DNA of 64,000 nucleotides from Candidatus Zhuqueibacterota bacterium (GCA_963169875.1 CAUJEL010000040.1:16323-80322), one strand, 5' to 3'. Positions 8,004-58,565 are shown, numbered from the stretch's first letter. Translations and numbers: made by a program. Notes: generated by a model from the letters alone, not told the origin.

Positions 8004-8040
8004 AGGAATATTTATCTGGTATTGTCACACAACTGCGATG

Positions 8041-8194
8041 GAGCGAAGCAATCTCCGCCAAAAGGGCTGGCGGCAGATCAACGCCTTACCGCGGGGATCG
8101 CTTCGTTCAAACTCAAGCACGCCTGCATGTCCAGGTTCGATACCTCCGTTCGCAGTACGTGAAAAGAGCCACTGGGATTGCTTCGTTCGCCTCA
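8041..8194. promoter_or_regulatory. Three copies of a ~16-nt motif GG(A/G)GAT(T/C)GCTTCG(C/T)TC in the ygeW upstream / FeS-subunit downstream intergenic region
   Basis: 8041-8056 (inverted), 8092-8110 and 8174-8194 share GATYGCTTCGYTC. Candidate operator array or terminator-associated repeat. Confidence 0.25.
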
Positions 8195-8662
8195 TTTTTT
8201 CCCATAAAACGACGCCGCCATCTCCACGGCATCGATGATCTGCTGATAGCCGGTGCAGCGGCAGAGATTGCCATGGATGGCGCGGCGGATTTCCGCGCGC
8301 GTCGGCGCCGGATTGCTCAACAGCAGCGCATGCGCCACCAGGATCATCCCGGGTGTGCAGAAACCGCATTGCACCGCTCCCGCATCGATGAACGCCTGTT
8401 GCAGCGGATGCAGCGTACCGTCCTGCGCGGCCAATCCCTCGATGGTTAATATCGACGCATCCGCTACTTCGTTGACGCGTTTCAGACATGATTTGACGGG
8501 ACGATCATTTACAAGAACCGTGCACGTGCCGCAGGCGCCCACCTCGCAGCCGATCTTGGCGCCGGTCAGGTCGAGATCTTCGCGCAGGTAATCGATGAGG
8601 CGTTTCTCCGCCTGCGCCCGCGTGATGTCGCGCTGGATGCCGTTCACCGTCAGCTTCATCAC
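8192..8662 (-). CDS. Molybdenum hydroxylase (2Fe-2S)-binding small subunit
   Basis: GCEVGACGTCTV and CGFCTPGM...NLCRCTGY motifs of XDH/CoxS-type ferredoxin subunits. The start overlaps the stop of the Mo subunit (ATGA). Confidence 0.85.
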   Translation of the reverse strand: MMKLTVNGIQRDITRAQAEKRLIDYLREDLDLTGAKIGCEVGACGTCTVLVNDRPVKSCLKRVNEVADASILTIEGLAAQDGTLHPLQQAFIDAGAVQCGFCTPGMILVAHALLLSNPAPTRAEIRRAIHGNLCRCTGYQQIIDAVEMAASFYGKK

Positions 8663-10941
8663 CGGCCTCCTTTTGTGCTATCCTGTGCGGTGATTTTTAT
8701 TGGCAGCTTGTAATGCCGCACCCCGGTCGCGTGGAATATGGCATTGGCGATGGCCGGCGCCATGATTTCGTTGGTGGGCTCGCCAATGCTCTTGGCGCCC
8801 GTGGGCGATACCGCGTCGTAATTTTCAACCACCACAGCCTTCATCTCGGGCAAATCCAGCGCGCGCGGCAGATGGTAGCGATTCAAATTGCCATGGCTGA
8901 TTTTCCCATCCACAACATTCAGGTCTTCATGCAGCGCATAGCCCGTGCCCATGGCCATGCCGCCGAAAAACTGGCCCACGAGCATGGTGTTGTTGATGGC
9001 TTTACCGACATCGTGGCAGGCCACCGCGTTGAGCAACTTTACTTTTCCCGTCGTTTTATTCACGGTGAGTTCAACCGCCTGACAGCCGTACACCCAGGTG
9101 AAGTAGGCGTTGCCCTGCCCAATCTCCTCGTCCCACGTCACCTGCGGGGCGCGGTAGACGCCCAGGGCATACGGGAATTGCTGCATCTGAAACATGCGCC
9201 GGATCGCTTCCGCAAAGGGGAGCGATTTTTTTTCGTCTTTGCCAATAAGTTGATTTGCTACGAAGCGGACCTCTTCCGGTGCACAATCCAGTTCCGCTGC
9301 AAAAAGTTTGGCGATTTTCAACTTGAGCTCCCGCGCTGCCAGCGCAACCGCGCCGCCTCCCATGATGGTGCCGCGCGATGCCACCGTGGTGCCGCTGTCA
9401 GGGATGGTCGAGGTGGAAGAACGTTTGTAGTGAATGACATCAAGATCAATCCCCAGCTCCTGCGCCAGGATAAGCGACATGGCGGTTTCAGAGCCCTGAC
9501 CGTTCTCATGCACGCCGACATCGAGAATGACCGAGCCATCCGCCTGGACGTTGATGATGGCGGCGCAAAAGTCCACCCCTTCCGCGCCCAGGCTGACGCC
9601 GCGGTAGCTCATGGCCAGGCCGATGCCATAAAGCTCCTCCCCATCGCCCTGGCCATGACTGCAGCACCCCAGTTTTTTTTCATAGCCGATTTCCTGGAAC
9701 ACCGTATCCAGCACCTGTTCCATGGAAACCGTGTGATTATCCAGCTTCTGGCCGGTGATGGTGACGCTGCCCTGCCGCACCATGTTTCTGCGCCGCAGTT
9801 CGATGGCCGGCAATCCCAGTTCTGCGGCCGCCTCTTCGATGATCGACTCGATGACGAAGTTCATCTGCGGCGAACCAAAGCCGCGCATGGCGCCCGTCAC
9901 CACGTTATTGGTGTAGACGCCCCAGGTATCGCAGTGCACATGTTCCACAGCATAGGGTCCGCAGCACTGCACAGTGGAGCGCCAGGTCACCCAGGGCGTC
10001 ACCGAACAGTAGGCGCCGCCATCGGCGATGATTTTGCACTGCACGGCTCTTATTTCGCCTGTACGAGTCAGGCCCATTTTATAATAGACGCGATAGGGGT
10101 GACGCTTGTAGCTCTCGCGGATCGACCATTCGCGGCTGTAGGCCATTTTCACGGGCCGGTTCAGCAGCCTGGCGGCCAGGGCCGTGCGCGCGCAGACGAT
10201 GGCCGCGGTATCGTCCTTGCCGCCGAATCCACCGCCCAGCGGCATGCCCACCACCTCCACCGCAGCCAGCGGCACGCCGAGACAGGTAGCCACAAAACGC
10301 CGCGTGCTGAAGGGATGCTGCATGCTGCCGCGGACTTCCATAACGCCATCCGGACGCGGCAGGCAAACAGATACTTCCGGTTCCATGTAGGCGTGCTCGA
10401 TGAACTGCGTCTCATAGACCCGCTCGAGGATGAGTTCCGATACGGCGAAACCTTTTTCGATATCGCCGCGGCGCACATGGTGGGTGTTGATGATATTGCT
10501 GCCATGATTCTCGTGGACCAGGATGGCATCCGGCCGCAGTGCTTCCTCCGCATCCAGCAGGGCGGGAAGCGGCTCGGCCTCGATGCGCACCCTGGCGGCC
10601 GCCTGCAACGCCTGCGCGCGGGTCTCCGCCACTACCATGGCTACGACATCGCCGTGATAGCGAATCTTGTCATCGGCGAAAATGCGGAAATCCCTGATGA
10701 TCTGGCCAAAATGGTTGCTGCCCGGCACATCCCGGCTGGTCAGCACTTTGACAACGCCCGGACTTGCCTCCGCTTCTGCGGTGTGCACCTGCACCAATTT
10801 GGCATGGACGTAATCCGAATAAACCGGAACGGCATGAAGCATGTTGACGAATTTCAGATCATCGCTGTATTTGGCTTTGCCGGTCACCTTGGCGTACGCA
10901 TCGTTGCGCCAGCCCTTTTCTTTCACGTCAGGCATAAGCAC
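8659..10941 (-). CDS. Molybdopterin-binding large subunit of a xanthine-dehydrogenase-family hydroxylase (no FAD subunit adjacent)
   Basis: 760-aa ORF with aldehyde-oxidase/XDH a/b hammerhead and MoCo-binding regions. It overlaps the hydantoinase stop by 19 nt and the FeS subunit start by 4 nt, suggesting translational coupling. Confidence 0.85.
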   Translation of the reverse strand: MLMPDVKEKGWRNDAYAKVTGKAKYSDDLKFVNMLHAVPVYSDYVHAKLVQVHTAEAEASPGVVKVLTSRDVPGSNHFGQIIRDFRIFADDKIRYHGDVVAMVVAETRAQALQAAARVRIEAEPLPALLDAEEALRPDAILVHENHGSNIINTHHVRRGDIEKGFAVSELILERVYETQFIEHAYMEPEVSVCLPRPDGVMEVRGSMQHPFSTRRFVATCLGVPLAAVEVVGMPLGGGFGGKDDTAAIVCARTALAARLLNRPVKMAYSREWSIRESYKRHPYRVYYKMGLTRTGEIRAVQCKIIADGGAYCSVTPWVTWRSTVQCCGPYAVEHVHCDTWGVYTNNVVTGAMRGFGSPQMNFVIESIIEEAAAELGLPAIELRRRNMVRQGSVTITGQKLDNHTVSMEQVLDTVFQEIGYEKKLGCCSHGQGDGEELYGIGLAMSYRGVSLGAEGVDFCAAIINVQADGSVILDVGVHENGQGSETAMSLILAQELGIDLDVIHYKRSSTSTIPDSGTTVASRGTIMGGGAVALAARELKLKIAKLFAAELDCAPEEVRFVANQLIGKDEKKSLPFAEAIRRMFQMQQFPYALGVYRAPQVTWDEEIGQGNAYFTWVYGCQAVELTVNKTTGKVKLLNAVACHDVGKAINNTMLVGQFFGGMAMGTGYALHEDLNVVDGKISHGNLNRYHLPRALDLPEMKAVVVENYDAVSPTGAKSIGEPTNEIMAPAIANAIFHATGVRHYKLPIKITAQDSTKGGR

Positions 10942-12266
10942 GCTCCCGTGGGATTGCTGGTGTTGCAGAGCCGCCCGTCCCGGGCTGCGAGAACACCGCG
11001 AAGGAACACATATTTGATATCAAGGGTGGATGTCAGGTCCGGATAGGTCTCCCAGGCATCGGCCAGGGTTGAAAGTACAGGCTTGGCCGCACCCCGGGGC
11101 TGCAGAACCACCAGGTCGGCGTCCGCGCTCGCCTGGATGGCGCCCTTGCGCGGATAAAGACCGGTCACCCTGGCCGGATTGGTGCAGAGTTGTCGGCTGA
11201 TTTGCACCAGGGTTTTCTCCGTGAGAACATCCTGGTACAACTTGAAAACAAGGTGCGGCAAGGCGCCGATGCCGGCCACGCCGCCGGGGACGCGGCGGAT
11301 GTCGCCGCCCCAATCATCTTTGTCTTTTTTCAGGAAGGCGCAGTGATCCGTGGCGAAGAGATCGATCGCACCGTGCCTCGCCAGTTCACATAACTTCTGC
11401 CGTTGTTCTGCCGTGCGCAGCGGCGGCGCGCAGATCCAGTGGTATCCATCGGGCCGTGCCAGATAACCTGCATCGAGAAAGAGATAGTGCGGGCAGGTCT
11501 CGCAGGTGACGCGCGTATCGGGTGCGGAGCGGATGGCTTCCACGCCTTCAGGTGTCGAAACGTGCACAATGTGAATCTGCGCCCCGGTCTTGCGCGCCAA
11601 ATCGATGAGGCGCAGGATGGCCGTCACTTCCGCGGCAGCGGGACGGAGTCGAACGTGCGACATGGGATCGCGCCAATCGATATTCCCACCCTGGGTTTGC
11701 GTTAGCAATTGATCATCTTCGCAGTGCACCAGCACGGTGCAGCCGAGTTGATGCAGGCGGCTGATCCGTTCCTCCAGTTCATCGTAGGATGAATAGATAC
11801 CCGCATTTTTATAGGTCGTGTAGAACTTGAAAGTACGCATTCCTTGTTCAATGCAGGCTGCAATCTCTTCCCAACCGGGCTTATCAAAGCGCACGGGCGT
11901 CAGGTGCCACAGGTAATCGCAATGGGATTTGCCGGACGCTTTGATTCTCGCGCGTTCAACCGCCGCGGTCAGGGATTCGTCCGGCTCCTGGGTGATGAAC
12001 GAACCCAGGGTGGTGATGCCGTTTTGCAAGGCATGCTGCGAGCCGCTGGACCAGGTGTCGGCCAGATATTTGCCGGCGATGACGTCATCCAGATGGGTGT
12101 GGATATCGATGAATCCGGGGAAGATATAGCAATCCGACGCATCGATGGTTTGATCAACCTGGTGATGAGCGCCCAGAGCGGCAATGCGATCATTTTCAAT
12201 CAAAAGATCGGTGTGGATGATATGATCTTCCAGGACGATGGTGCCGTTGTGGATGCAGGTTTTCAT
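10923..12266 (-). CDS. Cyclic amidohydrolase (dihydropyrimidinase/D-hydantoinase-like, HyuA-like)
   Basis: GFIDIHTHL metal-binding motif, KFY, HCED, and a C-terminal hydantoinase-like fold. This is the position of hyuA in the E. coli-type locus. Confidence 0.8.
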   Translation of the reverse strand: MKTCIHNGTIVLEDHIIHTDLLIENDRIAALGAHHQVDQTIDASDCYIFPGFIDIHTHLDDVIAGKYLADTWSSGSQHALQNGITTLGSFITQEPDESLTAAVERARIKASGKSHCDYLWHLTPVRFDKPGWEEIAACIEQGMRTFKFYTTYKNAGIYSSYDELEERISRLHQLGCTVLVHCEDDQLLTQTQGGNIDWRDPMSHVRLRPAAAEVTAILRLIDLARKTGAQIHIVHVSTPEGVEAIRSAPDTRVTCETCPHYLFLDAGYLARPDGYHWICAPPLRTAEQRQKLCELARHGAIDLFATDHCAFLKKDKDDWGGDIRRVPGGVAGIGALPHLVFKLYQDVLTEKTLVQISRQLCTNPARVTGLYPRKGAIQASADADLVVLQPRGAAKPVLSTLADAWETYPDLTSTLDIKYVFLRGVLAARDGRLCNTSNPTGACLCLT

Positions 12267-12473
12267 GGATGATTGATCAGTGAATTTTGGATTTTATCAA
12301 GTGCTGAATGGCACTTTGGATAACGTATCGGAATTGCAGTGCTTATATATAGGAAAATGTATCATGAACAGCAAGATATATTTTTTTAGACGGGGAAACC
12401 GTGGCCGCAAGCAGGCGCATGATCGTCCCAGGGTTCCCGCCCCGGGACGGGTCTCGCTTAAAGGTTCCACCCC

Positions 12474-12690
12474 GGGGCAGGAATAGCGGAGTGATGATGG
12501 TGGGCTCCACCTGCTGTTGGTGGGGCCCACCTGAAGCGGATGCATCGAGTTGGGCCCCATCAAAAAGAGATGGAGCTCAACCGCTTGTCCTCAGGGGATG
12601 CGGCAGCCTGACAGCTCCAGGTTTCCGCATCCCTTAAAAGTGAATACGTCAGCAATATGAAAGGGAACTGAAAGGATGCGGAATCCGCAA
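12474..12690. repeat. Structured ~220-290-nt repeat element, copy 1 (two-hairpin domain architecture)
   Basis: Shares with copies at 16673-16899 and 19569-19857 the blocks GCAGGAAT...GATGGTGGGCTCCAC...GTTGGTGGGGCC...AGTTGGGCCCCATC...AGATGGAGC(T/C)CAA...CCTGACAGC...GGTT(T/G)CCGCATCC...GGATGCGG(A/C)A. Confidence 0.6.
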
Positions 12691-12816
12691 GTGCGCAACA
12701 AAATGAAACAAGAGACGCAGATTTTCAGTACATAATAATAAAGGCGGCTGATATTTTTATGGCCAGCCACTCGAGAGTCTCCGGATTTTAATGGTTTCAT
12801 AATTATTGAGTTAACC

Positions 12817-14088
12817 ATGTGTGCTGTATCCCGTAAAGAGAAATCCCCTTTCGTACCATTGCTCTCCAACAAGCTTGGAGACATGCAAGCGCGGATTGAC
12901 GTGTACAAACAAAAGTATCAAGAGCTCTGGCTCGATACCCCGGTGACGTTTCCTGAATTCGAAAAAAGCTATGCCCGGAAAGAGAAGCGCGAGCTGGAGC
13001 AGACTGCCTCTGCACTGCTGCAACAGATCGGAGAAATAGAGAAAAATAACAACCTGGACAAAGAAACCATGCTGGCCTATGGCGATGAGATCATCCAGCT
13101 CTGCGGTCAAGCCGGGCTCCATTTCGATCGATCCTTTTCCGATGGCTTTGGCCGCGCCTCCAGGGAATTTCTGCGAATGGCAAGAGCCTTTGATGCGCAG
13201 CTGCAGCCGGAAGAGATCTATCAGGCCCTGCGCAATGTCTGGATCGCCAACTCGCTGCAGGTGTTGATGGGACAGGAGATGCACTGCAGCGCGCCGCTGT
13301 TCGCCTACAGCATGCTCTACCCCTACTCCGACAACATCATTGATGATCCTGAATTGTCTTTCTCTGACAAGCTGAATATGAACGTTCATTTCAAGAAATG
13401 GCTGCAGGGTGAGACCTGTCCCGCTGCGAATGGCACTGAGGAAAAAATACACGCGCTGGTTGAATTGATTGAAAAAGAATTTCCCCGTGACTGTTATCCG
13501 CGCGTTTTTCAGGGCCTGCTCGCTATTTTCAACGGCCAGATCAAGAGCCTGATGCAGCAGAAACAACATACAGGTCTTGAGGCCATCGACCTGCTCGACA
13601 TCAGCCTCGAAAAAGGCGGCACCTCCGTGCTCGCGGATGGCTATTTGCTCGGCGGCACCCTGGACGACCGCTGGGAAGATTTCTGCTTCGGTTACGGCGC
13701 TTTCCTGCAATTTGCCGACGATCTGCAGGATGTGGCCGATGATCTGGGAAATGGCCATCAAACCCTCTACTCGCTGGCAGCAGCCAAAGGTCCGCTCGAT
13801 GCCCAGGCGAACCGGTTACTCCATTTCATGAGACGCGTCGTCGATGAACATCTCGCCGGGCCGGACTTTCAGGGTTGCAGAGAGATGATTGTCAAAAATT
13901 GCCTCTTTATGGTTCAGGAAGCGATCCTGAAAACAGCGCCTTTTTATTCAGCGGATTATCTCCGCGCCATGGAGCGCCACTTCCCAATCAGCTTTCCTTT
14001 TTATCGCCAGGTAAAAAACCACCTCAAGCAGATGCTCTTCTCTCGCGCCGCTGAGCTGGTGAAAATGGAGATCAAGCCCTTGTGCTAA
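12817..14088 (+). CDS. Hypothetical protein; C-terminal ~290 aa resemble the squalene/phytoene-synthase (head-to-head isoprenoid synthase) fold
   Basis: Protein-like 423-aa ORF; the overlapping minus ORF is an antisense shadow. Two Asp-rich motifs ~128 aa apart, LFAYSMLYPYSDNIIDD and GYGAFLQFADDLQDVADD, resemble the CrtB/SQS motifs ADDIVDD and LQLTNILRDVxED. Confidence 0.55.
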   Translation: MCAVSRKEKSPFVPLLSNKLGDMQARIDVYKQKYQELWLDTPVTFPEFEKSYARKEKRELEQTASALLQQIGEIEKNNNLDKETMLAYGDEIIQLCGQAGLHFDRSFSDGFGRASREFLRMARAFDAQLQPEEIYQALRNVWIANSLQVLMGQEMHCSAPLFAYSMLYPYSDNIIDDPELSFSDKLNMNVHFKKWLQGETCPAANGTEEKIHALVELIEKEFPRDCYPRVFQGLLAIFNGQIKSLMQQKQHTGLEAIDLLDISLEKGGTSVLADGYLLGGTLDDRWEDFCFGYGAFLQFADDLQDVADDLGNGHQTLYSLAAAKGPLDAQANRLLHFMRRVVDEHLAGPDFQGCREMIVKNCLFMVQEAILKTAPFYSADYLRAMERHFPISFPFYRQVKNHLKQMLFSRAAELVKMEIKPLC

Positions 14089-14452
14089 ATAAAATGCCTC
14101 ACCCACCTCACGTCAGCAAAAAAACTGCAAAGTATTTCCTTTTAATGAATTCGATTTGTATATTTCAACAGCCCTTTCGAGATTGAGGCAGACGATTTTC
14201 CGTTCGGAAATGACAGCAGTTCAGATACTACATTCCGATCCATGTGAGAGATAGATATCCGGTCGATTTTCCCGCTTGACGAAAAATATAGCAATTTAAC
14301 GCACGTCCTCCTGGCCCTGGACAAAAATATTACATACGATTATATTTGCGAAACAGCGAGTGCCCAAAAACTGATCCGATGAGTAGCGAACAATTCTTCC
14401 TTTCAAGTTATCGGATGTGATCCGGTTCAATGAACTATGAATGGAGGTCGTA

Positions 14453-16624
14453 ATGAATCGCACACAGCTTTCCCGCAAATGCATTGCAGCTTTGTTCTTC
14501 TTCATCCTCCTCGTCAGCATCATTATTTTGGATTCCTTCGATCCGCACGCTTGGGCGCGAAATCGAATCTCATCCAGCCAAAATCCTGTAACCATTTCGA
14601 GCACAGACTCGGTATTGTATGCAGCCGTCCACCTGAACGGCACCATCACGAATCAAACACTGGCTTTCGTGAGCCGCGATGAAGGTATCCTGGTTGATGC
14701 CAGGTCCTTTTGTGCGCTGACCGGCTGCAACTACTACCCTTTTTTTGCCAATTCAGGGTTGACGGTTCAATACGGCAAAATCATCTCATTTGCAGCGGTT
14801 CACTACAATAGGGGTTTTGTGGCCTGCCAGATGGTCGATATGCTGCCGCCGGCAGAACCCATGCAGGATGGCGTCTATGCGCCGCTCGATTTTCTCGCCA
14901 GGGCTATCGCTGGATCGGCACAATTCCATGCGGCCGATACATCAATACATATAACTGCCAATCCCGCGGCTCAGATCGGCGATATTATTTCACAAACCAA
15001 AGGCCTCGCCGATGCCTTGCGTCAATCACAGAACATCGTGCAGCAAGGTTCCATAAACCGTGTCAATCCCATAGAGATGTATTATGCCGGGTATACGCCC
15101 GATTGCCAGGGCAACAACGTCAATGCGCCCTATTTCCTCATCCAAACGCCGCCGGCACCCGGAATGCCATTCGTTTATGCCATACCCGCCATCCACTACA
15201 TGCGCGCCGATGAAGCCTTTGTCATCATCGGCCGCACGCCGCCCGAATGCGCCTACTACAGTTACCGCAGTTATCTGGTGAACCGCTATTATGAGGACGC
15301 CACGCCGCATCGCAAAAAAATTTATGCCAGTCTGGGCGACACGCAAAATGCTTACAACATCCCTGAAGGACGAATTAATACCCAGGCTTTCAACCGTTTT
15401 ATTGTGATCATTTCAACGGCAGACCAAAAAATCGCCACAGCCATCAAAAGCGCGGCCGCGCAGGCGGGCATCCCGGAAGATGATATCTATCTCGACATCT
15501 ATCCCAGTGAAATTGTCCATTTGGGCATCGATCAAAAAGCGGATTTTTTGGGCTATATCCATCGCACCTCCCTCTTTGCCAACCAACAGGATGCGGAGCG
15601 CTATCTGCAAAATCCAACGCTGGAAATTCTCCGCATCACGCCCGAAAGTCCTGTGACACCCGATTTTTTCCCGACCCCGACACTGCGCACAAGAGGAACG
15701 GGGACGACAGAATTTCATTTGAATGAAGGCATGGCGCAGCTCAGACAAGCCATCATCGACCAACACGGTAGCGGCTGCGAAGTGATGGAGTTGCAGACAT
15801 CGATCTGGGGTGCGGAGTGGCTGCTGGAAGGATGGGAAGCCATTCGCCAGGGCGCCAATACACTGGCTGAGGTGCGCGACACCATATACATGCTGACCGA
15901 AACGTTCGAATTCAACCAGGATGACAGAGTCGTAGCCTATGGCGTGAACCATACCAAAACGAACAAAGCGATATACTGTAATGCCAGTTTTTATGGCCGC
16001 ACGGTATGGAACGGTGTCGGCACTATCACGGATCGAGCCTATGCAGGCAGCGCCACGGCTTATCTGGGAGACACAACTCTGGCGGATAGTTTTTACGTCT
16101 GCAAGTTTGCGCGTACCGCGATCGATCAGGCCACGATCGTGATTCCGACAGATGTTGAAAAAAATTATACGGGCGTCGATTATGGCGCCCCATCAGTCGT
16201 TGGCTTTCGCGCCTATGTCGAGCCGGCAACCATGGTGGGCTGCGCACCGGAGGAGATCATCTGGGACCGCGCCATTCTCTTCCGGCCGCAGAATACCCGG
16301 GTGAAGAAAAATCAGCAAGAGATCAAACCGCACCAGGCCGAATTATCCGCTTTTCCCAATCCATTCAATGCACAAACCGGCATTAATCTGAACGTGCCGG
16401 AAAATGCGAAGGTTCGGGTGCACATTTTCAATCTGCAGGGCCGGCTGGTCAGGGAACTATGGGCAAGGGAGAATTTTGCCGGCGCCGCTGCGCTTCATTG
16501 GGACAGCCGCGATGCGGCCAACCGGCTGGTCAGCAGCGGCCTTTATGTGATTGCCGTTGATCTCGTGAATCTGAATTCAAATGAACAGGTTAGATTAGCT
16601 CGAAAGATACTCCTTGTTCGTTAA
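14453..16624 (+). CDS. Secreted protein of unknown function with a T9SS C-terminal sorting domain
   Basis: RBS GGAGG 5 nt upstream of the ATG at 14453 (MNRTQLS...). N-terminal hydrophobic signal/anchor. The C-terminus FPNPFNAQTGINLNVPENAKVRVHIFNLQGRLV...GLYVIAVDLV is a type-A CTD. Confidence 0.75.
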   Translation: MNRTQLSRKCIAALFFFILLVSIIILDSFDPHAWARNRISSSQNPVTISSTDSVLYAAVHLNGTITNQTLAFVSRDEGILVDARSFCALTGCNYYPFFANSGLTVQYGKIISFAAVHYNRGFVACQMVDMLPPAEPMQDGVYAPLDFLARAIAGSAQFHAADTSIHITANPAAQIGDIISQTKGLADALRQSQNIVQQGSINRVNPIEMYYAGYTPDCQGNNVNAPYFLIQTPPAPGMPFVYAIPAIHYMRADEAFVIIGRTPPECAYYSYRSYLVNRYYEDATPHRKKIYASLGDTQNAYNIPEGRINTQAFNRFIVIISTADQKIATAIKSAAAQAGIPEDDIYLDIYPSEIVHLGIDQKADFLGYIHRTSLFANQQDAERYLQNPTLEILRITPESPVTPDFFPTPTLRTRGTGTTEFHLNEGMAQLRQAIIDQHGSGCEVMELQTSIWGAEWLLEGWEAIRQGANTLAEVRDTIYMLTETFEFNQDDRVVAYGVNHTKTNKAIYCNASFYGRTVWNGVGTITDRAYAGSATAYLGDTTLADSFYVCKFARTAIDQATIVIPTDVEKNYTGVDYGAPSVVGFRAYVEPATMVGCAPEEIIWDRAILFRPQNTRVKKNQQEIKPHQAELSAFPNPFNAQTGINLNVPENAKVRVHIFNLQGRLVRELWARENFAGAAALHWDSRDAANRLVSSGLYVIAVDLVNLNSNEQVRLARKILLVR

Positions 16625-16672
16625 ATTCACGTCTTTTACCTTCTGGACGTGGATTGAACCCTCCGGGATCTC

Positions 16673-16899
16673 CGCACCCGGTGCAGGAATCCCGGCGCGA
16701 CAATGGTGGGCTCCAGCTGCCGTTGATGAGTCCCACATTTGGCAGATTAAAAGAGTTGGGCCCCATCGTAAACAGATGGAGCCCAATAGTTCAGCCTTTA
16801 GGCATGCCGTAACCTGACAGCACCAGGTTGCCGCATCCCGTAAGGCCGATGACATTAGCCGCGTGCACCAGTACTGGCAGGATGCGGCAACCCTGGTTG
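16673..16899. repeat. Structured repeat element, copy 2
   Basis: It begins 49 nt after the stop of the preceding gene. It contains a perfect 13-bp stem GGTTGCCGCATCC/GGATGCGGCAACC around a 45-nt loop. It lies inside a 568-bp block bounded by direct repeats at 16584-16604 and 17152-17172. Confidence 0.6.
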
Positions 16900-17170
16900 A
16901 AAACTTGCCAATTTGCGGGGTGATAACTATTTTTAAAGAGGAATAGGATTTTATCCACCCAAGACTGCTATAGGCGACAGTTGAGTTGATTCTATTCATC
17001 AACCACCGAGTGTGCAGTGCCCGCCGAGCTGTTTTGTTGGTATTATAGAACACATTATATTTTGAGTTTCATCTCAATATTGAAGGTTTTAGCCAGTTCA
17101 ACTTTACACTTTTCTTTCTTTGCGTATCTCTGCGTTCTCGGCGGTGAATGATTCAGGTTAGATTGACTCG

Positions 17171-19540
17171 ATGAAAATTGCTTGCGAGAGTGATTTTAAC
17201 TTTTATGAATCCCAGTCAACTCTATCCCAACCGATTCAAAAGAATTCTCCATTAATCAAAACTTCTTTTTCTCGAAATTCTGGGGTGGCAGCAATGAACA
17301 GAGAAAAATCAATGACGAGATGGTTGGTTGCCCTGCTGATCCTGGCCAGTCTGGCAGGCACCCATCGTGCCGGAGCTGCGAGCGGCAAAGTTTGCGGCAC
17401 CATCAAAGACCGGCGCATGCAGCCTGTGGCAAATGTCGAAGTGACGGTTCAAAATGCGGCTTTTATGGATGCCGTCATGGCCCATACCACAAGTAACAGA
17501 GACGGCTACTTTGAGGTCTGGGCCGACACCAAAGTCGAAGCCTCTGCACAGACCAAACCGGGCAGCTATCAGCTGTTCCAGAATTACCCCAATCCCTTCA
17601 ATCCTTCAACCCGGATCGTCTATAACCTCAAAAAGAATGCGCTGGTGTCCCTGCGTGTCCATAATATCAAGGGACAGCTGGTACGAAAGCTGATTCATTC
17701 TGAATACCGCACCGCGGGTGAGCATTGGGCGCAGTGGGACGGTCTGGATGACGCCGGCAGGCCCACGGCCGCGGGCATCTATCTCTATACCCTCGATACC
17801 CCGGAATTCTCAACCACCGGGAAAATGACCAAACTGGATGGCGGCGGGGATATCAACAGGCTCTTCGGGGAACAGTCCGCTCTGGGGAAAACAGCCACTG
17901 AAATAGAGCAAAGCGGCAGCGCCGACCTGATTCATATCTTTTTATCCGGACCCCATATTGAGGACAAATCCGTACTGAACCGCAAGCTGGGCGATGTCGT
18001 CAGGGTGGACGAGGTCGTGAATGTCAGACCGGTGATCTTTTTCAGCGACCGGGTGGTCATGTATCCGGACGAAACCAGAGTGCTCGACAGTCTGGTGGCG
18101 CGAAAGCAGATATACGATCCGGATGGATATGAAGAGGAACCAGGCCGGCCGCAGAACATGTTCTGGGAGCTGGCATGCGATTGTGATTATGCAACATGCA
18201 CCATTATACCCTATATGGCAACCAGCGCCATCCAGGTGCGGCTGACGCAAAATTTTATCGGTCAGAGAGAAATCCCCATCAAAATCCGCCAGGCGCCCGA
18301 ACCGGGAGAGACCATACCGCACCAGTGGAGCGAAGGGATTATTCCTATTGAGGTCGATGGTTCCCTCTTCAAATTCACACCCACAGATTATGAAGGCACG
18401 CCGCTTTCCGGTTCTTTTGACATCAGCATAAGGAATAAGGAGATCGCCCCAGCCGCCCTGAGGGACAGCATCCCCTACTGGTACCATCTCACCATGCAGG
18501 AGGGTCAGTCCTTTTATATAAAAAAAGGGATCTATGATGTGATCATCCGGGATGAAGTGGAGACCTTTAACTATTATCCCAAGCTGCCCACCGAGCCCTT
18601 CGATCCCCGGGAATATCTGAAAATCGGCAACTGGTACGACAAGCGTTTTCTCGATCTGGATCTCCATGCGGATTTTCTCCAGCCGGTTCCCTTCCTCCAC
18701 GAGACCGTGGATCTCACCGCGACCAACTTTGCCGAGGTCCTCGCCGAATTCGATCTGCCCACCTATATGTGGATGAGTTCGATGTATCTGTTCTACAGAC
18801 GCATTGGAGGCCCGATGAATGGCGCCACCAAGTCATTCAGATACCTTGATCCGGCAGGCACCATACCGCTGCCCTTCCGGATGAATATCCCGCACTGGGA
18901 AGTGGATTTCAAGCGCGGCGAGCGCATCTGCGTGCTGGTGGACAGCGCGGCGCTCTACAGTCAGATCGTCCCCCTGAACGATAATCGCGAGCACCTGATA
19001 GAAACCGTGCTTCTGCATCTGGATGCCATTAAAAAGATTTTTGCCGAGGCCGATCCTGATAGCAAATACTACAGGTTGGTTATGAGTCCGGGCGAAAAAA
19101 CGGAACCCTATATCCATCTGCAGTTTACGACGAATAATAGTATGCTCGACAGCATGATTCTGGATCAAGCTTATAACCTGCGGGGCGTGCATTATCTAAT
19201 CGAAAACAATTATGGGCAGTACGGCAATCCGGTCATCGCACAAGTTATTCAGAGGATTGAAAGGTGTCTACGCGGACATTTCTTCGGATTTCATTCGGGC
19301 ACAACTTTTTTACAGGATCTGCCGAGAGATGACAGCTATCGCTGGCCCTATTTGAAGGGCTACAATGGCATCCCCAGGGACCAGGTGACGGTATGGCGCG
19401 CCTGGGCTGCCATACCGGAAAATTCCCCTTTTGAAGGGGACTTTATGGGTCCGGAAAGTTTTGTCGCGCGCGACCTCACCCAACTCTACTATTTCCTCGA
19501 ATTCGGCGGCGAAGATCCCGCGGCCAATATGCTGGATTGA
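17171..19540 (+). CDS. Large secreted protein with a carboxypeptidase-regulatory-like domain and an internal T9SS-CTD-like domain, followed by a ~580-aa unknown domain
   Basis: Continuous 789-aa ORF. A signal-peptide-like segment MTRWLVALLILASLAG starts ~47 codons in, so an alternative start is at 17294. The CTD-like sequence QNYPNPFNPSTRIVYNLKKNALVSLRVHNIKGQLV...AGIYLYTLDT lies at residues ~135-215 rather than at the C-terminus. Confidence 0.7.
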   Translation: MKIACESDFNFYESQSTLSQPIQKNSPLIKTSFSRNSGVAAMNREKSMTRWLVALLILASLAGTHRAGAASGKVCGTIKDRRMQPVANVEVTVQNAAFMDAVMAHTTSNRDGYFEVWADTKVEASAQTKPGSYQLFQNYPNPFNPSTRIVYNLKKNALVSLRVHNIKGQLVRKLIHSEYRTAGEHWAQWDGLDDAGRPTAAGIYLYTLDTPEFSTTGKMTKLDGGGDINRLFGEQSALGKTATEIEQSGSADLIHIFLSGPHIEDKSVLNRKLGDVVRVDEVVNVRPVIFFSDRVVMYPDETRVLDSLVARKQIYDPDGYEEEPGRPQNMFWELACDCDYATCTIIPYMATSAIQVRLTQNFIGQREIPIKIRQAPEPGETIPHQWSEGIIPIEVDGSLFKFTPTDYEGTPLSGSFDISIRNKEIAPAALRDSIPYWYHLTMQEGQSFYIKKGIYDVIIRDEVETFNYYPKLPTEPFDPREYLKIGNWYDKRFLDLDLHADFLQPVPFLHETVDLTATNFAEVLAEFDLPTYMWMSSMYLFYRRIGGPMNGATKSFRYLDPAGTIPLPFRMNIPHWEVDFKRGERICVLVDSAALYSQIVPLNDNREHLIETVLLHLDAIKKIFAEADPDSKYYRLVMSPGEKTEPYIHLQFTTNNSMLDSMILDQAYNLRGVHYLIENNYGQYGNPVIAQVIQRIERCLRGHFFGFHSGTTFLQDLPRDDSYRWPYLKGYNGIPRDQVTVWRAWAAIPENSPFEGDFMGPESFVARDLTQLYYFLEFGGEDPAANMLD

Positions 19541-19568
19541 AGGCGCTGATCCTTTGAGGGGAGTAATC

Positions 19569-19857
19569 CACACCGGTGCAAGAATCCCGGCGCGACGATG
19601 GTGGGCTCCACCTGCCGTTGGTGGGGCCGACCTTAGGCGGACTAAAAGAGTTGGGCCCCATCAAAACAGATGGAGCCCAACAGCGCGTTAGCAAGGCATG
19701 CTGCAACCTGACAGCCCGTGGCGTGCAGATTCTGTAGCTGGCGCCACCTGCAAGGCTGAAGGTGACTGCTGTGTCCAGGTTCTGTGGTTGCCGCATCCCT
19801 CAAGGACGATGACGTTAACAGCGCGCACAGGAACTGGCAGGATGCGGCAACCCTATG
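19569..19857. repeat. Structured repeat element, copy 3 (carries a ~60-nt internal insertion)
   Basis: It begins 29 nt after the stop of the 17171..19540 gene and ends 15 nt before the thrC-like stop. It has the same conserved blocks as copies 1 and 2. Confidence 0.6.
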
Positions 19858-19872
19858 GAATCCGAGCCGTGC

Positions 19873-21120
19873 TCATTTCAATCCGACAACCTCTTCCACC
19901 CGCTCCAGCACCGGTTCCACAGCCTCGGGAATCTTGACCTGCGTCATCGCAGCGCCAACGTCCTTCAAACCATGGCCGGTGATGAGCAGGACGATCTGCT
20001 CCTTTGCATGCAATCGTGCATCTCCGGAAAGTCTCAGCAAAGCCGCGGCAACCGCCGCGGCTGCCGGCTCGGCAAAAATGCCCGTCGTCTCCGCCAGACT
20101 TCGCTGACCCCGCAAAATTTCTTCGTCCGAAACCGTGATCGAAAATCCCCCGGAATCCAGGACCGCCTGCCGCGCCATGGAGGCATTGCTGGGCGCGGAC
20201 ACGGAAATGGAATCCGCAATGGTAGTGGGCTGGTCCGCATTGCGATACACACCGGTCGCGATGAAACGATGGATGGCATCCGAGGTCTCGGCCTGCACCG
20301 CCACCAGCCGCGGCAGTTTTTCGATCAACCCCGATTCTCTCAGGTCATAAAAAGCTTTGTACACGCCGCTGATGATCACCCCATCCCCCACGGGCACGAG
20401 AATGACATCGGGAATTACCCCTGCATTCTGCTGGAAAATCTCGAATCCCACCGTCTTCTTTCCTTCAATGGTCAGGGGATGATAGGCGGTGTTGCGGTTC
20501 ATGCCCCCCCTCTTTTCGCTGTATTGCAATGAAAGACGAAAGGCGTCGTCGTAAGTGCCGTTGACGGGAATGACGCGCGCGCCGTGCAGGATCATCTGCA
20601 CCAGTTTGGCCCGGGGCGCCGACGCCGGCACAAAGATGACTGCATCGAGACCGGCCGCAGCGCATATAGCCGCCAGGGAACTGGCAGCATTGCCGGTTGA
20701 GGCAGCTACAATGGTTTTGGCGCCGATGCGGTTGGCCTCCGCCGCAACCAGAAAAGAGGCCCGATCCTTGAGTGAACCGCTGGGATTGAGGCCGTCGTTT
20801 TTGACAAAAACGTTGGTAAAACCAGCTAGTGCAGCAAATCGATCAATACGCGTGAATGGGGTATTACCCACCGCATAGGGCGGAAAGTATTTCGCCTCCA
20901 CTGCAGACCACAGCGTCCAGTCGATGGCTTTTCCTTGCAGCCGGGCGCGGATGGCGTCATAATCAAACTCAACCCGCAGCACGCCCGGCAGCGGCATGCC
21001 GGGCTTGTAGCCGGTGGCGCAGACCGGGCAGAGATAGGTCACCTCATCGCGCGCATAAGCGCGGCCGCACTGCGTGCAGCGATAGGCGAAGGGAATGCGC
21101 ACCGGATCACGCCTTGCCAT
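19873..21120 (-). CDS. Threonine-synthase-family PLP enzyme with an N-terminal zinc ribbon
   Basis: CTQCG...CPVC ribbon, followed by the NPSGSLKDR lysine motif (threonine synthase NPTGSFKDR). Its start overlaps the ygeY stop by 14 nt. Confidence 0.8.
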   Translation of the reverse strand: MARRDPVRIPFAYRCTQCGRAYARDEVTYLCPVCATGYKPGMPLPGVLRVEFDYDAIRARLQGKAIDWTLWSAVEAKYFPPYAVGNTPFTRIDRFAALAGFTNVFVKNDGLNPSGSLKDRASFLVAAEANRIGAKTIVAASTGNAASSLAAICAAAGLDAVIFVPASAPRAKLVQMILHGARVIPVNGTYDDAFRLSLQYSEKRGGMNRNTAYHPLTIEGKKTVGFEIFQQNAGVIPDVILVPVGDGVIISGVYKAFYDLRESGLIEKLPRLVAVQAETSDAIHRFIATGVYRNADQPTTIADSISVSAPSNASMARQAVLDSGGFSITVSDEEILRGQRSLAETTGIFAEPAAAAVAAALLRLSGDARLHAKEQIVLLITGHGLKDVGAAMTQVKIPEAVEPVLERVEEVVGLK

Positions 21121-22315
21121 TCAGCGTGGCCACCAGGGCGGCGTAAAACACCGCAGCGGCGCTGAGATGTTCGACAGGACACGCCTCGTTGACGGCATGG
21201 GCATAGACCTCATGGCCCGGTCCCAGCCCGAGGCAGGGAATGTTATTCATCCCGGCGATGGCGATGGCGTTGGTGCTGAAGGTCCATTTGTCCACAAGAG
21301 GTTGCTTGTTGAATACGCCCTGGTAAGCGGCAATGGCCTGCTGCAGATAGGGCGATTTTTCATCCAGTACCCAGGTTGGATAGTACTTTTCCGTTGGATA
21401 GATTTTTCCGGTATAGGCCGGCTCTTCATAGGTCAACACCATCACCTTGGCATCTGCTACGCCCGCTTGCCGCGCGGCTTCCTCAACTTCGGCGACGGCG
21501 CTCTCTTTGGTTTCACCCAGCGTCAGGCGCCGGTCGAGATGAATCGAGGCCGCGTCGGGCACGGCGCACAAAGACGGCGATGCGGAGCGCGTCTCGGTCA
21601 CGGTGATGGTGCCCTTGCCGAGGAAGGGGTCGAAGCGCAGCCGTTCATTGAGCTTTTCGATCTCCAGCGCGATGCGCGCCACCTTGTACACGGCATTGTC
21701 GCCGCGCTCCGGCGCCGAGCCATGGCAACTCACGCCCTTGACCTCGACGCGCATCTCCATGCGGCCGCGATGGCCGCGATAAATGTTCATGTTGGTGGGC
21801 TCGGTGATGACCACCAGTTCGGGCCGGATTTTCTCTTCCTTGATCAGGTACTGCCAGCACAAGCCGTCGCAATCCTCTTCCATCACCGTGCCGGTGAAAT
21901 AGATGGTGAACTGGTCATTCAGTCCCAGTTCCTGGATGATTTTTGCCGCATAGACCATGCTGGCCATGCCGCCTTTCTGGTCCACGGTGCCACGGCCCCA
22001 CACCTTGCCATCTTTGATGAAAGGCGTGAACGGATCGAAATCCCACTGGCTGAGATCGCCGGGATAGACGGTATCGATATGCGCGTCGAAAGCGATGACG
22101 CGGGGACCATGGCCGATGCGGCCGACGATGCTGCCCAATCCATCGATGCGAATTTCGTCGAATCCCACTTTTTCCATCTCGCTTTTGATGACCTGGATGA
22201 CGGCTTCTTCCTTGCTCGAGAAAGAGGGCGTGGAGACCAGGTCCATGAGGAATTCCACGATCTCATTTTCGAGTTCCCGGGCGCATTGTGAAATTTGCGA
22301 ATGGTATGAATCCAT
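21107..22315 (-). CDS. ygeY: M20-family hydrolase YgeY (selenium-metabolism-associated peptidase family)
   Basis: M20 metal ligands in HIDTV, GTVDQKGG and EEDCDG. Overall similarity by eye to E. coli YgeY. Confidence 0.85.
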   Translation of the reverse strand: MDSYHSQISQCARELENEIVEFLMDLVSTPSFSSKEEAVIQVIKSEMEKVGFDEIRIDGLGSIVGRIGHGPRVIAFDAHIDTVYPGDLSQWDFDPFTPFIKDGKVWGRGTVDQKGGMASMVYAAKIIQELGLNDQFTIYFTGTVMEEDCDGLCWQYLIKEEKIRPELVVITEPTNMNIYRGHRGRMEMRVEVKGVSCHGSAPERGDNAVYKVARIALEIEKLNERLRFDPFLGKGTITVTETRSASPSLCAVPDAASIHLDRRLTLGETKESAVAEVEEAARQAGVADAKVMVLTYEEPAYTGKIYPTEKYYPTWVLDEKSPYLQQAIAAYQGVFNKQPLVDKWTFSTNAIAIAGMNNIPCLGLGPGHEVYAHAVNEACPVEHLSAAAVFYAALVATLNGKA

Positions 22316-22702
22316 TTGTATACTTCTCCTGTTCTGGTATTCACCTGATGCGGTGTTAACGATGGACGTAATCGTAGTTCAGTGCACCCATAGGGCGCGG
22401 GCATGCAATTACTGTGGCCCAGTTTACAAAGAATCCGATCATTCGTTGCTCATCGCCTAAATATAGCCCAAATAGTATTTTTTTTCAAGTCCTTTATGAT
22501 GCATTTTTGATCTTTGGGTCAATGACAACACCTCGCCGCTCCGTCGTCCAGCTTACCTGTATGAAAAACCTGTTCGTATGGAAATAATGCATTCCCTTTT
22601 TGGGCCGCCCATTCCGGATACATTTTTTCCAGATTTGCCTTGACTCATATCTCCTGATTGGCTATTTTTCATAAGGGTTATCACGTAAAATGGAGAAATG
22701 GA

Positions 22703-57771: not shown

Positions 57772-58153
57772 AGGACAGTCTCCCTCGCAGCAAAACACAC
57801 AACGTGCGATGGTTTGAGTAGACTCTGATCGCGGGAATCGGCGGGAAGCAAATTCGCAGAGTGCCAGGCCCGGTGATGCGGCCTCATGAAACCTGTCAAA
57901 TTCTCTTCACGAGTACCCCTGTTTCGTCCATAATATAATTCAACAACATGAATAATGCAATTTTATTATACCCTGTGATGCGGCACTTGCAGAGGAATCT
58001 ATTAGCAGATGTCCAGTGGAGATTGCGTCTTTGATGGCCCCGGTGCAGGCATACTTTTGCAGCCCCAGCCCGGGTGGCACGCGCGACTTGTTGATATTTT
58101 TCAGCAACGATCCCTTGCATTGACGAGATTCGTCGAACTCCGCTTCCTTGTGT

Positions 58154-58394
58154 TCTGGAGAGGGCGCCTGCCAAGTGATCTCAAAATACCGGTGCAGGGC
58201 TCTCCAGAACCCGACGAAGCGCGACAGCAACTTCGGGATGCGGCATGCCATCGGGACAAATAAATTTGACGCCACCCAGCGGCCTTAAAGAACGCCGCAC
58301 CCCGGATAAATCGCGCTCTGGAGAGGGATCCTGGCAAGTTTTCGCAAAATACTGGTGCAGGAGACTACAGAGACCGATACGCGACAAGATGGCC
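58154..58394. repeat. Two ~78-nt direct repeats (~75% identical) in the noncoding region between the ABC permease 3' end and the lipoprotein/M4 operon 5' end
   Basis: 58154-58230 and 58317-58394 both begin TCTGGAGAGGG...CAAGT...AAAATAC(C/T)GGTGCAGG. The first can fold as TCTGGAGAG...CTCTCCAGA. A third partial GGTGCAGG copy lies at ~58040. Confidence 0.35.
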
Positions 58395-58565
58395 ACAAAA
58401 TCTCCTCTGTGTCTTCGTACCTCAGTGTTGAAAAGGATTTGCCACAGGGACACAAGAGGCAGCGAAAAAAATCGGCTAACACGGCCTCACACGGTATGAG
58501 ATGCCAGGTGTGTTCTGGAACGCGCTCCTGCCTATCTATTTTTAAATATCTTGCTGGATTCCGGC

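What the first reader, a model, noticed from the sequence alone, without database searches (positions are those of the whole stretch)
12474..19857. Three copies of a ~230-290-nt structured intergenic element with compensatory base changes
- Copies at 12474-12690, 16673-16899 and 19569-19857 share ordered sequence blocks that fold into an outer hairpin (TGGGCTCCA / TGGAGCCCA) enclosing an inner hairpin (GGTGGGGCC / GGCCCCATC).
- A third hairpin is long and perfect in copies 2 and 3 (GGTTGCCGCATCC…GGATGCGGCAACC around a 45-nt loop).
- In copy 1 the third stem has the paired change ttGccg→ttTccg on the 5' arm and gcggCaa→gcggAa on the 3' arm. That preserves pairing. The element also contains G•U-compatible substitutions. 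Both point to selection on RNA structure.
- Copies 2 and 3 sit 49 nt and 29 nt after the stop codons of consecutive + genes. Copy 3 carries a 60-nt internal insertion.
- No coding potential.
- The element could be a MITE-like mobile element, a 3'-UTR or sRNA family, or a recombination site. It is confined to the accessory insert inside the purine-catabolism locus.
Basis: seen in the sequence. Interest (0 to 1): 0.7.

Follow-up and report, generated by a model that had tools for sequence, protein, structure and literature searches.

The report
Mosaic REP-like intergenic repeat family
The three look-alike intergenic stretches are real. They are best read as copies of a lineage-specific palindromic DNA repeat of the REP/REPIN/BIME kind, which marks where extra genes and a foreign DNA tract join the chromosome, and not as a new structured RNA.

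Summary
There are three co-oriented copies (about 12421-12686, 16649-16892 and 19545-19852), 70-86% alike, and no others in the 64 kb.

**Anatomy**
- Each copy has two ~33-nt imperfect palindromes in inverted orientation, which is a REP-doublet (REPIN-like) layout.
- A three-arm module follows, whose last two arms form the 13-bp hairpin with a 45-nt loop.

**Structure evidence**
- The doublet shows no compensatory change in seven sequences.
- The long-loop hairpin has three compensated pairs in five sequences, which a DNA palindrome explains equally well.
- Rfam has no match. There was no DNA match in the plasmid, phage or E. coli collections.

**Relatives**
- Modules of the family lie in unrelated housekeeping intergenic regions of related uncultured bacteria (UBA2214, probably KSB1). 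They occur in variable tandem numbers, and contigs often end inside them.
- A sister lineage lacks the doublet at the copy-1 site and lacks genes B and C.
- Right of about 19597, inside copy 3, the window is 99.5% identical to that lineage for 11.5 kb. Left of it identity is 78-87%. This is either a recombination junction or an assembly chimera at the repeat.

**Verdict**
This is a new member of a known kind and of modest interest. Mobilisation by a RAYT-like enzyme is inferred, not shown.

The parts
12421..12686 (+). Copy 1 of the composite repeat, in the divergent ssnA-like / gene A intergenic region. Components: leader hairpin 12425-12450; arm A 12499-12511; arm B 12519-12531; arm C 12549-12561; arm D 12569-12581; E1 12596-12608; F 12620-12632; E2 12674-12686.
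   Evidence: The leader's homology to the sister-lineage element is shown.
12386..12618 (+). Unaligned gap between the two blast matches to the sister lineage. About 210 nt of it (roughly 12383-12594: leader plus REP doublet) is absent there, where about 20 nt take its place. The sister lineage keeps an E1-like arm and the F/E2 hairpin.
   Evidence: Blast coordinates, alignment. Sister-lineage loci are L029-L033.
16649..16892 (+). Copy 2, between gene B (14441-16624) and gene C (17171-19540). Components: A 16705-16717; decayed B 16725-16737; C 16755-16767; D 16775-16787; E1 16802-16814; F 16826-16838; E2 16880-16892.
19545..19852 (+). Copy 3, between the convergent gene C and ygeX-like gene (19873-21120, minus strand). 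Components: A 19600-19612; B 19620-19632; C 19650-19662; D 19669-19681; E1 19696-19708; extra segment 19718-19785; F 19786-19798; E2 19840-19852.
19573..19597 (.). Identity switch. To the right, the window is 99.5% identical to the sister lineage for 11.5 kb (to 31102). To the left there is no homology until gene A, and flanking genes are 78-87% identical. There are 3 mismatches within 19577-19597 and then none until 19809.
14033..19572 (+). Window-specific segment relative to the sister lineage: diverged 3' end of gene A, a 352-nt spacer, gene B (727 aa, FlgD_ig / type IX secretion (T9SS) tail), copy 2, and gene C (789 aa, an orphan apart from the FlgD_ig domain).
19650..19681 (-). The C/D unit read on the minus strand is a 13-bp stem followed by TCTTTTAGTC. 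This terminator-like site lies about 190 nt downstream of the ygeX-like stop codon. Copy 2 has the same feature at 16756-16786.
58141..58560 (+). Second, diverged cluster of three repeat units. It shares sub-motifs (AAAATACCGGTGCAGG; GCGCTCTGGAGAGGG) with the 5' edge of the element and with modules seen in relatives (L020, L022, L036).

Best explanation
The three copies belong to a lineage-specific family of mosaic, palindrome-built intergenic DNA repeats. The family is of the same kind as REP/REPIN, BIME, BOX and neisserial NIME elements.

**Architecture.** Each copy is a composite.
- A variable leader comes first.
- A REP-doublet follows: two ~33-nt imperfect palindromes, A-loop-B and C-loop-D, in inverted orientation about 17 nt apart. 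Single strands can therefore fold either as two local hairpins or as one long nested hairpin.
- A three-arm module (E1, F, E2) comes last. F and E2 close a 45-nt loop.

**Shown.**
- The units are modular.
- They vary in number and occur at unrelated intergenic sites in related genomes.
- The doublet is present or absent at an orthologous site.
- One copy coincides with a sharp switch in sequence identity to a sister lineage.

**Inferred.**
- Copies spread as non-autonomous elements through single-strand hairpin intermediates, using an enzyme supplied in trans (RAYT/IS200-like), or by recombination between copies.
- Once in place, they act as portable homology at which divergent DNA carrying extra secreted-protein genes (B and C) was joined to the chromosome.
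- Effects on transcripts (3' stem-loops, a terminator-like hairpin for the ygeX-like gene) would be secondary co-option.
For: 1. **Inverted units.** The first unit is 25/33 identical to the reverse complement of the second in copies 1 and 3 (21/33 in the decayed copy 2), including loops, against 19/33 in direct comparison. The reverse-strand self-hits of the profile and the model agree.
2. **Both folds available, no covariation.** Local and nested folds both appear in predictions. Neither has compensatory changes.
3. **Dispersal in relatives.**
   - L036 carries a doublet plus a 4x tandem 14-nt unit in the ygeW-Fer2 intergenic region.
   - UBA2214 carries modules next to the rimM-trmD-rplS operon (L018), and downstream of an acyl-CoA ligase-like gene that converges on an outer-membrane-protein-like gene (L020; gene names read from the ORF translations, not scanned).
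   - L022 carries 3-4 tandem first-type units after a sugar-kinase-like gene.
4. **Presence/absence.** About 210 nt (leader plus doublet) are missing at the copy-1 site in L029-L033, while the flanks align.
5. **Contig ends.** Contigs L018, L022, L028 and L043 end inside the element. L029-L031 end at a branch point just left of it, where L042 shows a different left flank.
6. **Identity switch.** Identity changes from 78-87% to 99.5% inside copy 3. Genes B and C are absent from the sister lineage.
7. **No known match.** No Rfam family matched. There were no matches in plasmids, phages or E. coli. Viral hits were seed-only chance matches.
8. **Literature.** The layout matches the published definition of REPINs: two inverted REPs, a spacer, and a hairpin in ssDNA or RNA (PMC3337134). 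Its position next to surface/secreted protein genes and variable gene content resembles NIME arrays (PMC1797815).
Against: - **Abundance unknown.** Only three full copies lie in 64 kb, and all are clustered in 7.4 kb. That is unlike the even, high-density scatter of classic REPs. Genome-wide abundance could not be measured.
- **No enzyme found.** No RAYT, IS200-like or other transposase or integrase domain was found in any window ORF of 100 aa or more.
- **No insertion footprint.** No clear target-site duplication or terminal inverted repeat marks the copy-1 insertion. Only a GGGG occurs on both sides.
- **Uniform architecture and orientation.** All four composite copies keep the same module order and the same orientation as the adjacent + genes. 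Duplication of one ancestral intergenic region, or a functional (RNA or cassette) role, would also produce this.
- **Covariation in hairpin 3.** Hairpin 3 has some covariation.
- **Possible chimera.** The identity switch may be an assembly chimera and not a biological event.
Confidence: 0.6

Rival explanations
1. A family of structured RNAs acting in cis on the flanking + genes. Candidates are 3'-UTR stabilisers, processing sites, terminators, or an sRNA. Selection would act on the RNA fold.
For: - All copies are co-oriented with genes A-C.
- In the two unambiguous cases, the element points the same way as both neighbouring genes: copy 2, and L036 between two minus-strand genes.
- Hairpin 3 has 3 compensated pairs, 93% of cells paired, and only 17 of 500 shuffles as good.
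- Folds are well below shuffled controls.
- The C/D unit read on the minus strand is terminator-like downstream of the ygeX-like gene.
Against: - There is no covariation in the 26-pair 5' domain in 7 sequences, and arm B decays freely.
- The mismatch and wobble pattern flips strand between the two units, as expected for inverted DNA copies and not for one transcript.
- Hairpin 3 folds equally well or better on the minus strand.
- Copy 1 lies upstream of gene A and 3' of no gene. Copy 3 has no downstream + gene.
- No T-run follows any + strand hairpin.
- Rfam gives no hit, even at E up to 10.
- In relatives the modules occur singly and in variable tandem numbers, which is unlike a fixed RNA architecture.
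Confidence: 0.15
2. Recombination sites of a gene-capture system, integron-like or NIME/dRS3-like. Each secreted-protein gene plus its downstream element would be a cassette, inserted by a site-specific recombinase that recognises the folded hairpins.
For: - The layout is gene + element: gene B-copy 2 and gene C-copy 3 in the window, and gene A-element in the sister lineage.
- Gene content varies at one locus between close relatives, and a third left flank is seen in L042.
- The junction of the identity switch lies at the edge of arm A.
- C/D carries GTTGGGC...GCCCAAC, which matches the integron core and inverse-core consensus strings (sequence; consensus from my own knowledge).
- Genes B and C are accessory. 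Gene C is an orphan.
Against: - No integrase or other recombinase lies in the 64 kb.
- No element lies between genes A and B.
- The order of the core-like strings is the reverse of attC (GTTRRRY first).
- The element is 250-310 nt, against 55-150 nt for attC.
- In relatives the modules sit next to housekeeping genes with no cassette-like genes.
- The cassettes would be 2.5-2.9 kb.
Confidence: 0.12
3. There is no mobility and no function. The copies are local duplications of one intergenic sequence made during rearrangement of this locus, and copy 3's context is an assembly chimera joined at the shared repeat.
For: - All full composite copies known are at this one locus, in the window and its sister lineage.
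- Module order is identical in all copies.
- The window to the right of 19597 is 99.5% identical to a co-occurring lineage while the left is 78-87%.
- No independent contig spans gene C to the ygeX-like gene. L028 stops at 18361, and exact look-ups of gene C and of its NCBI form P0121 found nothing.
Against: - Doublet modules occur at other loci in L036, L018, L020 and L022.
- Genes A, B and C are not paralogues. They share only a FlgD_ig domain, so this is not a simple tandem duplication.
- The longest identical runs between copy 2 and copy 3 are about 15-16 nt. A chimeric join would therefore need a much more similar, unseen copy.
Confidence: 0.13

Closest known systems
REP sequences / REPINs mobilised by RAYT transposases (Pseudomonas, Enterobacteria)
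   Same: - Short imperfect palindromes, about 33 nt here.
[quoted passage not shown]
- Extragenic, with variable spacers.
- Singlets, doublets and tandem clusters all occur (PMC3337134).
   Different: - No RAYT gene was seen.
- High copy number is not shown.
- The doublet is fused to an extra three-arm module with a 45-nt-loop hairpin.
- The host is an uncultured lineage (UBA2214/KSB1-like) where no such family has been described, to my knowledge.
BIMEs of E. coli and BOX elements of Streptococcus pneumoniae (from my own knowledge)
   Same: - Mosaic intergenic elements built from a few module types in fixed order with variable repeat number.
- Strong predicted stem-loops.
- Often located at 3' ends of genes.
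   Different: - No sequence similarity. The E. coli genome collection gave no match.
- Protein binding (IHF, gyrase) and effects on mRNA are untested here.
Neisserial intergenic mosaic elements (dRS3/RS arrays) and minimal mobile elements
   Same: - Intergenic repeat arrays that flank surface or secreted protein genes.
- Alternative gene content at a syntenic site between conserved genes.
- Proposed role as crossover points for imported DNA (PMC1797815).
   Different: - dRS3 is a 20-bp inverted repeat recognised by a phage recombinase. The units here are 33-nt palindromes with no known enzyme.
- Only one locus has been examined.
Integron attC sites
   Same: - Imperfect palindromes following promoterless-looking genes in one orientation.
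- The strings GTTGGGC and GCCCAAC are present.
   Different: - The order of the core-like strings is reversed.
- The element is 2-5 times longer.
- No IntI gene is present.
- The element is missing between genes A and B.
- Modules also lie beside housekeeping genes.

Membership tests
REP / REPIN | Short (about 20-40 nt) imperfect palindromic unit | tested here: met
   A-loop-B and C-loop-D are 32-33 nt with 13-nt arms. 88-92% of cells are paired across 7 sequences.
REP / REPIN | [quoted passage not shown] | tested here: met
   The first unit is 25/33 identical to the reverse complement of the second in copies 1 and 3, and 21/33 in copy 2. The spacer is 17 nt. The nested fold is the predicted minimum for copies 2 and 3. 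82.5% of cells are paired.
REP / REPIN | Extragenic and present in many copies dispersed over the genome | tested here: inconclusive
   All copies are intergenic. Modules occur at 4 unrelated loci in relatives. Only 3 clustered copies lie in this 64 kb, and whole genomes could not be scanned.
REP / REPIN | Cognate RAYT (HUH Y1 transposase) gene, typically flanked by the repeats | tested here: not met
   No Y1_Tnp or any other transposase domain was found in window ORFs of 100 aa or more. This does not settle the matter, because RAYTs are typically single-copy per genome (PMC5581495 abstract). The rest of the genome was not available.
MITE (miniature inverted-repeat transposable element) | Terminal inverted repeats matching an IS, plus a target-site duplication | tested here: not met
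   The ends of the copy-1 insertion share only GGGG, and no terminal inverted repeat is present. There was no similarity to plasmid or phage records, which carry many IS elements.
Integron attC | 5'-RYYYAAC ... GTTRRRY-3' order, 55-150 nt length, adjacent or genomic IntI | tested here: not met
   The order is GTTGGGC then GCCCAAC on either strand. The element is 250-310 nt. No integrase lies in the window. No attC covariance model was available to run.
Any Rfam RNA family | Score at or above the family's gathering threshold | tested here: not met
   There were 0 hits at gathering thresholds over the whole window. At E up to 10, the only match within the copies was an 18-bit chance hit on copy 1; the other two weak hits lie inside genes A and B.
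Structured RNA (generic) | Significant covariation supporting the fold | tested here: inconclusive
   The 5' domain has 0 compensated pairs out of 26. Hairpin 3 has 3 of 15 pairs compensated, with 17 of 500 shuffles as good, in only 5 sequences of which 2 pairs are near-identical or orthologous. E1:F has none.

The most novel reading that the evidence does not exclude
The composite hairpin elements would be the recognition sites of an undescribed gene-capture system in KSB1-like bacteria. It would work like integrons or neisserial NIME/dRS3 arrays but use a different, unlinked recombinase. It would load and swap genes for T9SS-secreted proteins (type IX secretion) at fixed chromosomal slots, and the junction at 19573-19597 would be one such event.
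Probability: 0.1. Interest if true: 0.7.

Novelty: new member of a known kind. Interest (0 to 1): 0.3.

Why it matters
- It documents a REP/REPIN-style mosaic repeat family in an uncultured lineage where none has been described, to my knowledge.
- It gives a concrete case where such a repeat coincides with the edge of a divergent DNA tract of at least 14 kb carrying two extra secreted-protein genes.
- In practice these repeats break or mis-join metagenomic assemblies. Several contigs end in them. Gene content and synteny calls around them, including this window's gene C / ygeX-like junction, therefore need read-level checking.
- The finding removes a candidate 'new structured RNA' from the list.

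Tried and rejected
- **Rfam.** No family matched at gathering thresholds or at E up to 10.
- **Viral contigs.** One pattern found nothing. The other gave 9 hits that match only the seed.
- **Genome and metagenome pattern scans.** 18 loci were returned, of which only L018, L020 and L022 are true relatives. L010-L017, L019, L021 and L023-L027 are chance hairpins, and the three inspected (L017, L021, L025) look like ordinary non-element sequence.
- **Other DNA collections.** E. coli genomes, plasmids and phages gave no match.
- **Tandem gene duplication.** Rejected. Genes B and C share only a 92-aa FlgD_ig stretch, and gene A shares nothing with gene C.
- **Conserved leader of gene A.** Rejected. 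The more distant orthologous locus L036 has other GC-rich repeats at that spot and no E1/F/E2 module.
- **Terminator/antiterminator switch (E1:F versus F:E2).** E1:F is only 80% paired with no covariation, and no T-run follows E2.
- **attC.** Rejected on string order, size and the lack of an integrase.
- **Diversity-generating retroelement repeats.** Differences between copies are not adenine-specific and the copies are non-coding.
- **Exact-protein look-ups.** Look-ups of gene C, the ygeX-like protein and P0121 found nothing.
- **Gene C homologue search.** It is an orphan, so no second context could be examined.

Full report
**Observation.**
- The three stretches are homologous and co-oriented on the + strand.
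- A profile of the three finds them at E 2e-81 to 5e-86 and nothing else in the window.
- A covariance model of the 5' domain run without filters gives 92-103 bits for the three. The next unrelated hit scores 11 bits at most.
- Pairwise identity is 71-86%.
- The extra piece in copy 3 spans 19718-19785, a net gain of about 66 nt.

**Neighbourhood.**
- The locus is a minus-strand ygeW/ygeX/ygeY/ssnA/xanthine-dehydrogenase-type cluster.
- Copy 1 lies between the ssnA-like gene (10923-12266, minus strand) and gene A (12817-14088, 423 aa, no Pfam match).
- Copy 2 lies between gene B (14441-16624) and gene C (17171-19540). Both carry a FlgD_ig domain. In gene B it is C-terminal and overlaps a weak type IX secretion (T9SS) tail match.
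- Copy 3 lies between gene C and the convergent ygeX-like gene.
- Genes A, B and C are not paralogues.
- No transposase, integrase or RAYT domain occurs in any ORF of 100 aa or more in the 64 kb.

**Anatomy.**
- The four 13-nt blocks are A GGTGGGCTCCACC, B GGTGGGGCCCACC, C GTTGGGCCCCATC and D GATGGAGCCCAAC.
- A-loop-B and C-loop-D are each an imperfect palindrome of about 33 nt.
- The second unit is the inverted copy of the first. The first unit is 25/33 identical to the reverse complement of the second in copies 1 and 3 (21/33 in the decayed copy 2), loops included, against 19/33 in direct comparison.
- This explains why two folds are possible.
- It explains why predictions switch between the two folds from copy to copy.
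- It also explains why the wobble pair sits on the + strand in one unit and on the minus strand in the other.
- Downstream lie E1 (GGATGCGGCAGCC-like), F (GGTTGCCGCATCC) and E2 (GGATGCGGCAACC).

**Covariation.**
- In seven sequences the 26 pairs of the doublet show no compensated change under either fold. Arm B varies by breaking pairs.
- F:E2 does better. It has 3 of 15 pairs with changes on both sides, 93.3% of cells paired, and 17 of 500 shuffles as good.
- However, that set has only five sequences, of which two are near-identical and two are orthologous. The same stem carries a U.U in copy 1 and a C.A in its orthologue.
- The stem folds slightly better on the minus strand than on the plus strand in each sequence. 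In the sister-lineage orthologue it is weak on both strands.
- E1:F has no support.
- The case for selection on an RNA fold is therefore weak, and a DNA palindrome explains the same data.
- Rfam has nothing.

**Relatives elsewhere.**
- Exact-pattern scans of the genome and metagenome collections returned 18 loci. Profile and model searches show three of them are true relatives.
  - L018 and L020 come from the MAG 'bacterium UBA2214'.
  - L022 comes from a JGI metagenome.
- A fourth relative, L036, turned up beside a 59%-identical gene A orthologue.
- In these relatives the modules lie in ordinary intergenic regions. The neighbouring gene names for L018, L020 and L022 are my reading of the ORF translations.
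  - next to the rimM-trmD-rplS operon
  - after an acyl-CoA ligase-like gene
  - after a sugar-kinase-like gene
  - between the ygeW-like and Fer2 genes
- Module numbers vary. L022 has three to four first-type units in tandem. L020 has a lone C/D hairpin followed by a long tandem array. L036 has a doublet followed by four 14-nt repeats and a GCCCTCTGGAGAGGGC hairpin.
- The window itself holds a second cluster of such sub-motifs at 58141-58560.
- Several contigs stop inside the element: L018, L022, L028 and L043. L029-L031 stop at a branch point where L042 shows a different left flank.
- UBA2214 is used as a class-level name in the one paper read (PMC10864421). My recollection that it belongs to phylum KSB1 fits the KSB1 names among gene A homologues but was not verified.

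**Comparison with the sister lineage.**
- Loci L029-L033 carry a 75%-identical gene A orthologue in the same place.
- At the copy-1 site about 210 nt (roughly 12383-12594: leader plus doublet) are replaced there by about 20 nt, while the E1-like arm, F/E2 and both flanks align.
- Downstream of gene A that lineage has one full element and then the ygeX-like gene. Genes B and C are absent.
- Gene A also lies between the ssnA-like and ygeX-like genes in the more distant L036. Gene A is therefore resident, and the window-specific segment is 14033-19572.
- Gene C has no homologue beyond its FlgD_ig domain.

**The identity switch.**
- From 19573 rightwards the window matches L042, from the same sample series as L029/L030, at 99.49% over 11,530 nt.
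- Leftwards, the shared genes are 78.6-87.4% identical.
- Mismatches fall at 19577, 19581 and 19597, and then none until 19809. The switch therefore lies at the 5' edge of arm A of copy 3.
- There are two possible readings.
  - Real recombination: a divergent tract of at least 14 kb, carrying genes B and C, has its right crossover in the repeat.
  - Chimeric contig: the assembly was mis-joined at the shared repeat.
- I could not separate the two readings. No independent contig spans gene C to the ygeX-like gene. The ygeX-like protein cluster holds no intermediate variant.
- Either way, the element behaves as shared repeated DNA between lineages.

**Mechanism.**
- Shown: modular palindromic units; an inverted doublet; dispersal in relatives; presence/absence at an orthologous site; coincidence with a junction.
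- Inferred: spread through single-strand hairpin intermediates using an enzyme in trans, as for REPINs and RAYTs, or by recombination between copies.
- Inferred: a role as portable homology for the import of accessory genes, as proposed for neisserial NIME arrays next to surface-protein genes (PMC1797815).
- Possible co-option: read on the minus strand, the C/D unit of copies 2 and 3 is a perfect 13-bp stem followed by a T-rich tail. In copy 3 it lies about 190 nt downstream of the ygeX-like stop codon.

**Rivals.**
- A cis-acting structured RNA (0.15) is favoured by co-orientation and by hairpin-3 covariation. Against it are the strand-flipping mismatch pattern, decaying arms, variable module number, and copy 1 lying 3' of no gene.
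- A cassette or recombination-site system (0.12) fits the gene-plus-element layout and the variable gene content. It lacks an integrase, lacks an element between genes A and B, and has the core-like strings in reverse order to attC.
- Local duplication plus an assembly chimera (0.13) cannot explain the modules at other loci.

**Verdict.** The element is a new member of the REP/REPIN/BIME/NIME kind of mosaic intergenic repeat in an uncultured lineage. Interest is modest (0.3). The most interesting open point is whether the junction in copy 3 is a real repeat-anchored gene import.

Noticed in passing
window 29802-31289 (+): A 495-aa protein carries a strong eukaryote-type ubiquitin domain (PF00240, E 1.9e-31, residues 36-105), followed by an SdrD_B domain and a T9SS (type IX secretion) C-terminal sorting tail. 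It looks like a secreted bacterial ubiquitin-domain protein.
   Followed up: no
window 39402-40823 (-) and 43979-45883 (-): A GatD-like protein (GatD_N + asparaginase domains) and a 634-aa GatB_N/GatE-like protein lie about 3 kb apart, separated by three other genes. This looks like an archaeal-type GatDE pair in what otherwise appears to be a bacterium with type IX secretion (T9SS).
   Followed up: no
window 58141-58560: Three diverged repeat units lie 163 and 197 nt apart, with inverted arms. They share AAAATACCGGTGCAGG and GCGCTCTGGAGAGGG sub-motifs with the element's 5' edge and with modules in L020, L022 and L036. The 111-aa ORF at 57940-58275 that overlaps the cluster has no Pfam hit and may not be a gene.
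   Followed up: partly
window 32603-32638 and 32666-32701: Two 36-nt GC-rich direct repeats, 89% identical, each containing a CCCCGGGAACGCCGGG hairpin. They lie in the intergenic region between the xdhC-like gene and a xanthine-dehydrogenase large-subunit gene.
   Followed up: no
window 19573-31102 versus L042; window 5787-14032 versus L029: Identity to one sister lineage is 99.5% on the right and 78-87% on the left. The source contig is either a genuine recombinant or a chimera of two co-occurring lineages.
   Followed up: partly
L042 11530-11630 (reverse strand) versus L032 2140-2200: The same element in the sister-lineage population has two different left flanks: gene A plus a hairpin, or an AT-rich ...TTTTTAGACAGCCA sequence. 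They diverge exactly at CGGGACTCACC, which is also where contigs L029-L031 end.
   Followed up: partly
L020 1800-2420: In UBA2214, about 600 nt of tandem and interleaved repeats (GCCCTCTGGAGAGGGC hairpins plus CTCCTGCAA-type units) fill the region between an outer-membrane-protein-like gene and an acyl-CoA ligase-like gene. The region contains runs of N, showing assembly trouble.
   Followed up: no
L037 7874-18435 and L038: A 56%-identical gene A homologue (P0015) sits away from the purine cluster. It is surrounded by four to five DDE transposase genes (ISL3, DDE_Tnp_1 types), so gene A can itself be in mobile contexts.
   Followed up: no
window 22658-25594 (+): A 978-aa protein with an AAA ATPase domain and a C-terminal RyR domain interrupts the minus-strand purine cluster. 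It is conserved at 99.5% DNA identity in the sister lineage.
   Followed up: no
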